Assembly: GCF_009914755.1 (NCBI RefSeq)
Contig: NC_060938.1
Origin: the human T2T-CHM13v2.0 reference genome, Homo sapiens
Reading direction: 5' to 3' (one strand)
DNA: 64,000 bases
Position numbers and translations under genes: made by a program. Every line of letters begins with the position of its first letter. The first letter of the stretch is position 1. Of this stretch, positions 20,751 to 25,104 are shown in pieces. The notes below the pieces were generated by a model that had not been told where the DNA came from, did not search any database, and saw nothing but the letters and a program-made list of their open reading frames with translations.

Positions 20751-22965
20751 TTGAAAAACTAGAAATGGAAGATGCAGAATAAAGACTTAACTGCCCATTA
20801 TTGCCCTATCTCTAAAATAAACTGAAGACAATAAGGAAAATGAATGAGAAAGGGAGAAACATCATCTTTTTAAATTAAAAGGCAACACTTTAAGTGTGAA
20901 AATACACTAATTAGAAGAGCTAATGAGTGCATCTGAAATTAGATCAGGGTAAAGGAAGATGCCAGGAGAGGATGACTACATTATAGAGTTTGGACAGAGT
21001 CAGCACAGCATAGATTTCTCCATAGGGGCCAATGGGTAGCCATACTTTGGAACATAATCATGAAAGGCTGTAAGTCTCTGTAACCTCCTTGCTGTTACAG
21101 TGTAACAGAAGAGGCAAGGTTGAATGAGGAAACCTTAAACATACTATCTTTGGAACAACGCTAATTATGAAGAAGAATCTGTGTATGACAAGCAACTCTA
21201 CAGCTATTTACCTTTGTTAACCAATGAAGAGAGAAGGTCAAATCACCTTGCAATCTCACAGACACAAAATATGTACTATGTAGGGCTTCACTGTGAGCTA
21301 GAGGGTATCCTTATTGGCCTAGAACATTCTTCTGAAGCCTTATGCACACTATCTTCCTAAAAATAACTTAACCAAGAAGAAATCACTTAATTTAAAGAGA
21401 AATATTATTTAAAAAGCAACAGAGGATTTATATAAAACACTACAATCTGAAAATGAAATAAGAAAACAATTTTATTTACAATAGAATACAAAATACTTAG
21501 GAGTATATTTAATCAAGGAGGTATAAAATTTGTACACCACAAACTATAAAACATTGCTGAAAGAAATTAAAGAAGGCCTTAATAACTGTAAAGACATTCT
21601 GTGTTCATGCATTGGAAGACTTAATACTGTTAAAATAGCAAACTACTCCAAATGGTTGGCAGACTCAATGCAATTTCTACCAAAATCCTAATACCCTGTT
21701 TTTTTTTTGTTTGTTTGTTTGTTTTGCAGAAACCGAAAAGCTGATTTTAAAATTCACATGGAATTGCAAGGGATCCAGAATGGCCAAAATAATCTTGAAA
21801 AAGAAAAATAAGGTGGGAAGACTCACATTTTTATATTTCAAAACTTACTACAAGCTGTGGTAACAAAGGCATTATGCTAATGGCATAAGGATAGACATAC
21901 AGATCAATAAAATAGACTGAGAGCCCAGAAATAAACTCAATAATGATAAACCCAAGAAACAAGCTCAATAGAATAGATTGAGAGTCCAGTTAATTTTCAA
22001 CAAAGGTGCCAAGACATTTCAATGGAGGACAGAATGATCTACTTGACAAATGGTGCTGGGGCAACTGGATATCCATATGCAAAAGAATGAAGTTAGACCT
22101 CTATCTCATACCATATGAAAAAATTAACTCAAAGTGGATCAAATATCTAAATTAGAAACTAAACTATAAAACTCTTAGAAGAAAACACAAGAGTAAATCT
22201 TTATGACCTTGGACTTGGCACTAGATTCCTAGAAATGGCACCCAAAACACAAGCAATACAAGGTAAAGTAGATACATTGGACTTCTTCAAAATTAATAAC
22301 ATTTGTTTGTAAAAGGACATATCAAGAAAGTAAGAAGAAAATCTAAAGGATGGGAGAAAATATTTATGAATAATTTATCTGATAAGGGTCTAGTATCTAG
22401 AATAAAGCACTCTTACAGCCCAACCCCAAATAGACAAACAACCTGATTAAAAATTGGCAAAAGACTTGAATAGACATTTTTACAAAGAAGATGTACAAAT
22501 GGCTGACAAACATATAAAAATATACTCAACATTTTTAGTCATCAGGAAATTACAAATTATACCACTTCACACTCAACTAGGATGGCTGTAATTTAGAAAA
22601 AATTAAAATAAGTGCTGGTGAGAATGTGGAGAAATTGGAAACCTCATCAATTGCTGGTGGGAATGTAAAATGGTGCGGCCATTGTAGAAAACAGTTTGGC
22701 TATTCCTCAAAAGTTAAATATAGAATTATAATATGATCTAAAAATTCCAATCCTAGATATATAACCTAAAGAATTGAAGAAAGGTATTCTAATAAATTAT
22801 TATATATGAATGTTTATAGTAGCATTATTCACAACAGCCAAAAGATGGAAACAAGCCAAATGTCCATCAGTGAATGAATAAACAAAATGTGATATAGCTA
22901 CAAATTGTTATTATTCAGCCATAAAAACAAATGAAGTTCTGATTGACCTTCAAAAGCTTTATGCT

Positions 22966-24276
22966 GCCCTCTCCCTCTCCCTCTCCCCTTTGCACGGTCT
23001 CCCTCTGATGCCGAGCGGAGGCTGGACTGTACTGCCGCCATCTCGGCTCACTGCAACCTCCCTGCCTGATTCTCCTGCCTTAGCCTGCCCAGTGCCTGGG
23101 ATTGCAGGTGCACGCCACCACGCCTGACTGGTTTTTGTATTTTTTCGTGGAGACGGGGTTTTGCAGTGTTGGCCGGGCTGGTCTCCAGCTCCTGACCGCG
23201 AGTGATCTGCCAGCCTCGGCCTCCCGAGGTGCCGGGATTGCAGACGGAGTCTCGCTCACTCAGTGCTCAATGTTGCCCAGGCTGGAGTGCAGTGGCGTGA
23301 TCTTGGCTCGCTACAATCTCCACCTCCCAGCCGCCTGCCTTGGCCTCCCAAAGTGCCGAGATTGCAGCCTCTGCCCCGCCGCCACCCCGTCTAGGAAGTG
23401 AGGAGCGTCTCTGCCCGGCCGCCCATCGTCTGGGATGTGAGGAGCCCCTCTGCCCGGCCGCCCAGTCTGGGATGTGAGGAGCGCCTCTGCCGTGCAGCGA
23501 CCCCGTCTGGGAACTGAGGAGTGTCTCTGCCCTGCCGCCACCCCGTCTGGGAGGTGAGGAGCATCTCTGACCGGCCGCCCCGTCTGGGAAGTGAGGAGCG
23601 TCTCCGCCTGGCAGCTGCCCCGTCAGGGAGGTGGGGGGCAGCCCCCGCCCAGCCGCCGCCCCGTCTGGGAGTTGCGGGGGCGCCTCTGCCCGGCGCCCCG
23701 TCTGGGAAGTGAGGAGCCCCTCTGCCCGGCCGCCACCCCGTCTGGGAGGTGTACCCAACAGCTCATCGAGAACGGGCCATGATGACAATGGCGGTTTTGT
23801 CGAATAGAAAGGGGGGAAGTGTGGGGAAAAGAAAGAGAGATTGGATTGTTCCTGTGTCTGTGTGGAAAGAAGTAGACATAGGAGACTCCATTTTGTTCTG
23901 TACTAAGAAAAATTCTTCTGCCTTGGGATGCTGTTAATCTATAACCTTGCCCCCAACCCCGTGCTCTCTGAAACAGGTGCTGTGTCCACTCAGGGTTAAA
24001 TGGATTAAGGGCGGTGCAAGATGTGCTTTGTTAAACAGATGCTTGAAGGCAGCATGCTGGTTAAGAGTCATCACCACTCCCTAATCTCAAGTACCCAGGG
24101 GCACAAACACTGCGGAAGGCGGCAGGGCCCTCTGCCTAGGAAAACCAGAGACCTTTGTTCACATGTTTATCTGCTGACCTTCCCTCCACTATTGTCCTAT
24201 GACCCTGCCAAATCCCCCTCTCCGAGAAACACCCAAGAATGATCAATAAATACTAAAAAAAAAAAAAAAAAAAAAA
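22966..24276 (+). mobile_element. SVA retrotransposon, older (A-C type) subfamily
   Basis: (CCCTCT)n head, antisense Alu-like region, GC-rich VNTR (~23370-23750), SINE-R, AATAAA 24245-24250, poly-A 24255-24276. Confidence 0.97.
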
Positions 24277-24336
24277 GAAGAAATAGAATAGAATAATATA
24301 AGTAAGTTACATGTGTTCCTCTAATTTGTGTTCATC

Positions 24337-24560
24337 CAGGGGAGGCAAATGATGGCAACAGGCCAAATCCAGCCTGCCACATGGTTTTATAAATACAGTT
24401 TTATTGAACACAGCCTCGCCCATTCATTTACTTATGGTCTATGGCTGCTTTTTTGCTTCACAATGGCAGTGTTGAGTAACTGCAGCAGAGACCACACGGA
24501 CTGCAAAACCTAAAATATTTACTATTTGACCTTTTACTGAAAAAAGTTTGCTGACCCCTG
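24337..24560 (+). mobile_element. MER58A-like hAT DNA transposon within the transduction
   Basis: cagggg...cccctg termini; 'ggccaaatccagcctgcc...aaagtttgctgacccctg'. Confidence 0.75.
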
Positions 24561-24626
24561 ATCTATTCATCATAAACTTCTTTTTGATAAATGGATTCTA
24601 ACAGAGACAAAGAACTTAGGGCTTAC

Positions 24627-24824
24627 CATCAAAACCTTTGAAGTTCTGCCTGGTTCTGTATGTGGAGGCTCTCATGGTGTTATCATTGCACTCTTTTACC
24701 AATCCCACTGCTTCTGTCCCCAGTAACATTCTAATCTTGGAGGCACCAACAAGATATAAGTTCTGATTTTCTAGTGTTTCTTGTTCATATTTATTTAACA
24801 ATGGTCTAAACAACAACTGGGCAC
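24627..24824 (-). pseudogene. ANO10: Transduced single-exon copy of ANO10 (anoctamin-10/TMEM16K), 198 nt
   Basis: Translates (G)[65 protein letters not shown], matching the recalled ANO10 N-terminus; bounded by tcttttgtttttgaag| and |gtaagc. Confidence 0.88.
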
Positions 24825-25104
24825 CTTCAAAAACAAAAGATAAGCACAATCTTAGACAAACATTAAAGTTTCAAAAATAAAAACTTTCTAAATAAATAAA
24901 AAAAAAAGCTTTATGCTAAGTTAAAGAAACCAGACATAAAATACCACCTGTTGTATGATTCTTTTTATATTGAACATCCAGAATAGGTAAATTTGTAGTC
25001 AGAAAGTAGACTAGTGTTTACGAGGGGATGAGGAGAAGTGGAGAACGACTGTTTAATAGGTATAGAATTTTCTCACAGTTAGTGTTGTTGCAAAGATAGT
25101 ATGT

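What the first reader, a model, noticed from the sequence alone, without database searches (positions are those of the whole stretch)
22952..24917. SVA 3' transduction moved a piece of the ANO10 gene into the TCR alpha locus
Seen: TSD aaaagctttatgct (22952-22965) - SVA - polyA - ~610 bp non-SVA DNA - ATTAAA/AATAAA - second A-tail - same TSD (24904-24917); the host L1MB rejoins across it. The cargo holds a MER58-like element and, antisense, an exon translating to the recalled N-terminus of ANO10 (TMEM16K scramblase, chr3). Known: SVAs read through their poly(A) site and carry 3' flanks. Inference: the donor was an antisense SVA in the ANO10 intron ~350 bp beyond this exon, so this is retrotransposon-mediated exon shuffling. 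Whether this locus is already catalogued is unknown to me.
Basis: partly seen in the sequence, partly recalled or inferred. Interest (0 to 1): 0.85.

Follow-up and report, generated by a model that had tools for sequence, protein, structure and literature searches.

The report
SVA insertion carrying an ANO10 exon
A full-length SVA retrotransposon in the T-cell receptor alpha locus carries behind it a 621-base copy of an ANO10 exon and its intron flanks from chromosome 3, which is an ordinary example of a well-known copying mechanism.

Summary
An exact 14-bp target-site duplication (22952-22965 and 24904-24917) encloses four things in order. First comes a complete SVA (22966-24254), made of hexamer, Alu-like region, VNTR and SINE-R. 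Then come its A22 tract, 621 bp of non-SVA DNA (24278-24898) and a short second A-tail.

The 621 bp match one other place in T2T-CHM13, chr3:43615598-43616221, with 11 mismatches in 624 columns and no gaps. On the minus strand they hold a 198-nt exon that matches Anoctamin-10 residues 47-113, with both splice sites intact. The next ANO10 exon lies beside the chr3 copy, so chr3 is the donor.

The old L1 that hosts the insertion rejoins across it. The structure is a classical SVA 3' transduction, about as old as the human-gorilla split by divergence (1.6%).

Two claims are not shown:
- The donor SVA is absent from the chr3 site in CHM13, so it is inferred (lost or never fixed).
- The exon lies antisense in intergenic DNA with no annotated transcript, so it was carried but not shown to be shuffled into a gene.

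No sibling insertion carries the same cargo. The kind of event is well known. I could not check whether this locus is already listed, because the published catalogues were unreadable here. Interest is low.

The parts
22952..22965 (.). 5' target-site duplication AAAAGCTTTATGCT. It is preceded by TC, so the target reads TC/AAAA, which resembles an L1 endonuclease site.
   Evidence: D13, 100% identical pair
22966..22966 (+). One extra G between the TSD and the hexamer. It is probably a cap-derived untemplated G of a full-length copy; that interpretation is recalled, not tested.
22967..22987 (+). SVA (CCCTCT)n hexamer repeat, 3.5 copies
22988..23366 (+). SVA Alu-like region (antisense Alu fragments)
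   Evidence: 74% over 237 nt, reverse orientation, to the Alu in L002
23367..23751 (+). SVA VNTR, period about 37-40, 9.9 copies
   Evidence: (D1)
23752..24254 (+). SVA SINE-R part, with the SVA's own AATAAA at 24245-24250
   Evidence: 2786 candidates; 40 scored, the 39 other than self at 96-97%; 6 of 6 relatives end at the same CAATAAATAC followed by an A-tract
24255..24276 (+). Internal A22 tract, read as the A-tail of the donor SVA. It is followed by one unmatched G at 24277.
24278..24898 (+). Transduced cargo, 621 bp, copied from chr3:43615598-43616218 (ANO10, antisense)
24336..24567 (.). Old dispersed repeat inside the cargo. It is also present in the chr3 donor.
   Evidence: hits to query 60-291 at 74-82%
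24627..24824 (-). Copy of one ANO10 coding exon, 198 nt, codons 47-113. The acceptor (ttttgaag|GT) and donor (G|gtaagc) sites are intact and the frame is open. It differs from chr3 by 2 synonymous and 2 amino-acid-changing bases.
24876..24881 (+). AATAAA 17 nt upstream of the cargo end and conserved in chr3. This is the likely poly(A) signal used by the read-through transcript.
24899..24903 (+). Second, short A-tail. Its boundary with the AAAA of the TSD is ambiguous.
24904..24917 (.). 3' target-site duplication AAAAGCTTTATGCT
   Evidence: D13
22703..22951 (.). Left part of the host, the 3' region of an ancient L1 (5015 candidates, 75-80% identity)
24918..25045 (.). Right part of the same host L1, contiguous with the left part once the insertion is removed

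Best explanation
This is a classical SVA 3' transduction. An SVA once sat in an ANO10 intron on chr3, antisense to the gene, with its A-tail ending at about CHM13 chr3:43615597. Transcription ran through the SVA's own AATAAA. It continued 621 nt through intron, a dispersed repeat, one coding exon and 74 nt of the next intron. It was then cleaved and polyadenylated after a downstream AATAAA. The L1 machinery reverse-transcribed this full-length RNA into a TC/AAAA site inside an old L1 between TRAV1-2 and TRAV2, which created the 14-bp TSD.

What is shown: the structure, the unique chr3 origin, the direction chr3 to chr14, a single insertion event, and host continuity. What is inferred: the donor SVA, which is absent in CHM13 and was presumably polymorphic and lost, and the read-through itself.

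The event is old. The cargo differs from the donor by 1.6%, similar to human-gorilla divergence (that figure is recalled). The carried exon is a passenger with no sign of use.
For: - One exact TSD pair encloses SVA, A22, cargo and a second A-tail.
- Six of 6 related SVAs end at the same CAATAAATAC followed by an A-tract, and none of their alignments to the window runs past 24286. The cargo therefore lies beyond the canonical SVA end.
- The cargo matches chr3 with 11 mismatches in 624 columns and no gaps.
- The non-repeat part of the cargo has only 2 copies in the genome, the window and chr3 (2 candidates, 2 scored).
- The exon matches Anoctamin-10 at E = 3.1e-37.
- The chr3 locus carries the next ANO10 exon (residues ~113-156, E = 1.3e-25) on the same strand. 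It is therefore the resident gene and the donor.
- AATAAA 17 nt before the cargo end is present in both copies.
- The chr3 junction reads AT/AAGAAT, which resembles an endonuclease site.
- The host L1 rejoins across the insertion in 4 of 11 paralog comparisons.
Against: No SVA, A-tract or remnant lies at the chr3 junction in CHM13. The defining donor element is therefore not observed, and only one haploid human genome could be examined.

No sibling SVA with the same cargo exists to corroborate an active donor.

The structure alone cannot exclude a template switch, or a second retro-insertion into the SVA's A-tail.
Confidence: 0.88

Rival explanations
1. Template-switch chimera. During one TPRT event the L1 reverse transcriptase first copied a polyadenylated RNA antisense to the ANO10 intron and exon. 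At the A-rich stretch near its 5' end it jumped onto the poly(A) tail of a separate SVA RNA. No SVA ever sat in ANO10.
For: The chr3 site is empty in CHM13. The cargo begins in an A-rich stretch (AAGAAATAGAATAGAATAAT), which could favour a jump onto a poly(A) template. A single TSD pair fits this reading as well.
Against: This needs an independent, unspliced, polyadenylated antisense transcript of an ANO10 intron, and nothing in the sequence supplies one. The upstream Alu is followed by a T-run only a few bases beyond its downstream TSD copy, which would stop Pol III.

[quoted passage not shown] Chimeras with an SVA as the 5' part are, to my recollection, rare.
Confidence: 0.07
2. Two separate events. 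The SVA inserted first, and later a 5'-truncated retrocopy of an antisense ANO10 RNA inserted into its A-tail. The retrocopy's own TSD would then be hidden in the A-runs.
For: A-runs flank the cargo on both sides, 24255-24276 and 24899-24907. A-tails are, by recollection, favoured L1 endonuclease targets.
Against: It faces the same problem of a missing source transcript. It also needs a rare hit into a 20-30 bp target. No non-A TSD surrounds the cargo alone or the SVA alone. The right-hand A-run is only 5-9 nt, which is short for a retrocopy tail plus duplicated target plus the rest of the SVA tail.
Confidence: 0.03
3. DNA-level duplication or gene conversion from chr3, not RNA-mediated.
For: None beyond the sequence identity.
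Against: The copy ends 17 nt after an AATAAA in an added A-run. It starts directly after an SVA A-tail and lies inside one TSD pair. All of these are hallmarks of retrotransposition.
Confidence: 0.01

Closest known systems
SVA 3' transductions in the human reference genome (Xing et al. 2006 PNAS, recalled and not readable here; Hoyt et al. T2T repeat paper, bioRxiv 10.1101/2021.07.12.451456, passages seen)
   Same: The layout is SVA, internal A-tract, unique flanking DNA from another chromosome, downstream poly(A) signal, second A-tail, all within one TSD. Some catalogued events carry coding sequence: the Hoyt passages give 55 highest-confidence SVA 3' events, and 295 events across L1, Alu and SVA that contain coding sequence.
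   Different: Here the parent SVA is not in the assembly. A pipeline that requires an identified parent may therefore have placed this event in a lower confidence bin. I could not see the tables.
Exonic SVA transductions among polymorphic human SVAs (PMC12593883; abstract and passages seen), e.g. the CASP8 and HGSNAT 3' transductions
   Same: Read-through of the SVA poly(A) signal carries part of a host gene, exon sequence included, to a new locus. For 16% of transduction-carrying SVAs no source element was found.
   Different: Those events are recent, human-specific and polymorphic. This one is in the reference assembly, has about 1.6% divergence from its donor, and is probably shared with other African apes (not tested).
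L1-mediated exon shuffling (Moran et al. 1999 Science, recalled)
   Same: The mechanism is the same: retroelement read-through carries a downstream exon to a new site.
   Different: In the experimental system the exon was spliced into a new transcript. Here there is no evidence of any transcript using the exon.

Membership tests
SVA retrotransposon | 5' (CCCTCT)n hexamer repeat | tested here: met
   22967-22987, 3.5 copies, 100% match
SVA retrotransposon | Alu-like region made of antisense Alu fragments | tested here: met
   22988-23366 aligns in reverse orientation to an Alu (L002 1085-1390), 74% over 237 nt, E = 4.7e-40
SVA retrotransposon | GC-rich VNTR of about 35-50 bp units | tested here: met
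   period 40, 9.9 copies, 23367-23751, D1
SVA retrotransposon | SINE-R part shared with the family and ending in AATAAA plus an A-tail | tested here: met
   40 of 40 scored hits (self included) are full-length, the 39 others at 96-97%, out of 2786 candidates.: 6 of 6 relatives have the same end. Derivation from HERV-K was not tested.
SVA retrotransposon | Subfamily (A-F) assignment | not tested
   No consensus library was available, and I built no consensus.
L1-mediated 3' transduction | Non-element DNA lies between the element's own A-tail and a second A-tail, all within one TSD pair | tested here: met
L1-mediated 3' transduction | The extra DNA maps contiguously to a unique locus elsewhere | tested here: met
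   chr3 only, 11 mismatches in 624 columns, no gaps
L1-mediated 3' transduction | A poly(A) signal lies 10-30 nt before the end of the extra DNA and is present at the source | tested here: met
   AATAAA at 24876-24881, identical in chr3, 17 nt before the end
L1-mediated 3' transduction | A source element lies directly upstream of the source sequence | tested here: inconclusive
   there is no SVA at the chr3 junction in CHM13. Only one haploid genome was examined. Published catalogues accept missing sources.
Exon shuffling (realised) | The moved exon is spliced into a transcript of another gene | tested here: not met
   The hub's gene table lists no gene or transcript on the minus strand at 24627-24824. 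The exon lies between TRAV1-2 and TRAV2 and antisense to them. No expression data were available. I therefore do not file this as exon shuffling, only as exon transduction.

The most novel reading that the evidence does not exclude
The insertion may have been put to use. In one version, the ANO10 exon copy is spliced into an unannotated antisense transcript of the TRAV region; its acceptor and donor sites are intact and its frame is open. In the other, the SVA acts as a T-lineage regulatory element that influences the accessibility or usage of TRAV2-4; RefSeq marks an enhancer feature at 23175-23747 on the SVA's Alu-like and VNTR part. My data neither show nor exclude either version.
Probability: 0.04. 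Interest if true: 0.5.

Novelty: new member of a known kind. Interest (0 to 1): 0.15.

Why it matters
It matters little. This is a clean, teachable example of an SVA carrying a complete exon with both splice sites to another chromosome, and of a transduction whose parent element has vanished.

It adds one dated data point on past SVA activity at ANO10. It is also a small caution for read mapping and variant calling: ANO10 is an ataxia gene (recalled), and this exon has a 98% identical copy on chr14. Nothing suggests an effect on ANO10 or on T-cell receptor function.

Tried and rejected
- Pfam scan of the antisense frame found 0 families. The exon is too short or lies outside the domain models, so this is uninformative.
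- The bacterial-type promoter and terminator scan of 24200-24950 found nothing and is irrelevant to a human locus.
- The inverted-repeat search for terminal repeats of the 'MER58-like' element found only a 10-nt chance pair.
- Sibling SVAs with the same cargo: none. In one search only the window and chr3 cover the whole cargo, and the other 38 scored hits cover the dispersed repeat only. One search gave 2 of 2.
- Literature: four full-text searches found no relevant paper. They were SVA+transduction+ANO10 (2 irrelevant papers), SVA+transduction+TMEM16K, ANO10+SVA+retrotransposon (1 irrelevant poster book) and SVA+transduced+anoctamin (2 irrelevant). SVA+transduction+T cell receptor alpha+retrotransposon also gave nothing relevant (1 irrelevant).
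- Xing et al. 2006 was not held.
- The published Hoyt et al. version was not held under the PMC id I recalled.
- Selection on the exon copy: 4 differences in 198 exon bases against 6 in 422 non-exon bases, Fisher p = 0.73. This gives no evidence either way.
- Subfamily naming and ape orthology could not be done with the tools held.

Full report
**Observation.** I read 22700-25200 and ran repeat finders on it.

The 14-mer AAAAGCTTTATGCT occurs exactly at 22952-22965 and 24904-24917 (D13). By my own estimate, the chance of an exact 14-mer pair anywhere in a 2.3-kb stretch is about 0.02, and it is far lower at the two element boundaries.

Between the two copies lie, in order:
- one G (22966);
- (CCCTCT)3.5 (22967-22987);
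- an Alu-like region (22988-23366) that aligns in reverse orientation to an ordinary Alu, 74% over 237 nt;
- a VNTR of period 40 with 9.9 copies (23367-23751);
- a SINE-R part (23752-24254);
- AATAAA (24245-24250) and A22 (24255-24276).

The SINE-R part had 2786 first-look candidates in the genome. Of these, 40 were scored and all 40 are full-length; the 39 other than the window itself are 96-97% identical.

Six related SVAs fetched from the genome all end at the same CAATAAATAC followed by an A-tract. None of their alignments to the window runs past 24286. What follows is therefore not SVA.

**The cargo.** A whole-genome search with 24277-24903 gave two full-length matches, the window itself and chr3:43615598-43616221 at 98%. 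The other 38 scored hits cover only query positions of about 60-291 at 74-82%.

The repeat-free part, 24570-24903, has exactly two copies in the genome: 2 candidates, 2 scored.

A pairwise alignment shows 11 mismatches in 624 columns and no gaps, from 24278 to 24901. Homology is certain to 24898. The last mismatch lies in what I take to be the added A-tail, which leaves 10 differences in 621 bp, or 1.6% (Poisson 95% interval 0.8-3.0%).

AATAAA at 24876-24881, 17 nt before the end, is identical in chr3.

**The exon.** The minus-strand open frame 24616-24870 matches PDB Anoctamin-10 (5oc9_A) residues 46-113 at E = 3.1e-37. The exon is 24627-24824 (198 nt).

Its acceptor and donor sites are identical to those on chr3. 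It differs from chr3 by 4 bases, 2 synonymous and 2 replacing (A to T, F to S). The rates of difference in exon and non-exon DNA do not differ (Fisher p = 0.73), so nothing points to constraint.

The chr3 locus carries the next ANO10 exon (residues ~113-156, E = 1.3e-25) on the same strand, about 1.7 kb away. It is therefore the resident gene, and the direction of copying was chr3 to chr14. Calling this 'exon 3' would rest on recall only.

**The donor site.** On chr3 the sequence upstream of the junction is ordinary intron (...actcaaattat|aagaattagaat...). It holds no SVA, A-tract or remnant. The nearest repeat is an Alu with its own TSD, about 115 bp further up.

The junction AT/AAGAAT resembles an L1 endonuclease site. 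The donor SVA is thus inferred, not seen.

A study of polymorphic SVAs reports the same situation for 16% of its transduction-carrying insertions. It attributes this to sources lost from the population or at low frequency (PMC12593883, passages seen).

**The host.** The left flank belongs to an ancient L1, with 5015 candidates at 75-80% identity. With the insertion and one TSD copy removed in silico, the flanks align as a single HSP across the junction to 4 of 11 paralogous L1 copies. The other 7 alignments end before the junction. The 'L1MB' name was not tested.

**Mechanism.** I judge this a single L1-mediated retrotransposition of an SVA read-through transcript, that is, a 3' transduction, with confidence 0.88.

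The rivals are:
- a template switch from an antisense ANO10 RNA onto an SVA RNA (0.07);
- a second retro-insertion into the SVA's A-tail (0.03);
- a DNA-level duplication (0.01).

The first two need an independent polyadenylated antisense intronic transcript, for which there is no source. The last is contradicted by the A-tails, the poly(A) signal and the TSD.

**Age.** The 1.6% divergence between copies is close to the human-gorilla figure, which I recall. A human-specific event (expected divergence 1.2% or less) is not excluded, since P(10 or more | 7.4 expected) = 0.22. No ape genome was available. The SVA subfamily was not determined.

**Function.** The exon lies antisense to the TRAV genes, between TRAV1-2 and TRAV2, and the hub's table lists no transcript on it. 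This is exon transduction, not demonstrated exon shuffling. RefSeq marks an enhancer feature at 23175-23747 on the SVA (hub annotation); I did not test it.

**Novelty.** SVA 3' transductions, including ones that carry coding sequence, are catalogued genome-wide. Hoyt et al. list 55 highest-confidence SVA 3' events in CHM13 (passages); Xing et al. 2006 is recalled only.

Five full-text searches found no mention of this ANO10-to-TRA event. The catalogues' tables could not be read, so it may already be listed there.

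Noticed in passing
L025 3520-3675 (G000:C5:112872019-112872174) and L028 (G000:C4:56627170-56627328): Two of the SVAs most similar to this one carry their own shared ~155-bp 3' cargo after the A-tail. The chr5 copy has a TSD, AATAATAAACTGAC. That cargo occurs at 23 places in the genome, 16 of them at 95% identity or more (the query's own locus included), and many lie within about 200 kb of chromosome ends. This looks like another SVA transduction group, or cargo spread by subtelomeric duplication. 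I did not check whether each copy sits next to an SVA.
   Followed up: partly
window 24862-24867: The ATTAAA hexamer in the chr14 cargo is ATAAAA in the chr3 donor (mismatch at 24864). It may have arisen after insertion, or been lost on chr3, so it is not safe to call it the signal that was used.
   Followed up: yes
L002 1091-1385 (G000:C3, ANO10 intron): An Alu flanked by a 16-bp TSD (agaaaatataatactt) lies about 115 bp upstream of the inferred donor junction, on the same strand. It is not part of the cargo, and it is followed by a T-run that would stop Pol III.
   Followed up: no
window 23175-23747: The RefSeq 'enhancer' feature in the hub's annotation lies entirely within the Alu-like and VNTR parts of the SVA. 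I did not test it.
   Followed up: no
G000:C3:42924659-42925161: Another SVA, 96% identical in the SINE-R part, lies about 0.7 Mb from the ANO10 donor site on the opposite strand. It is not at the junction, so it is not the donor as it stands.
   Followed up: no
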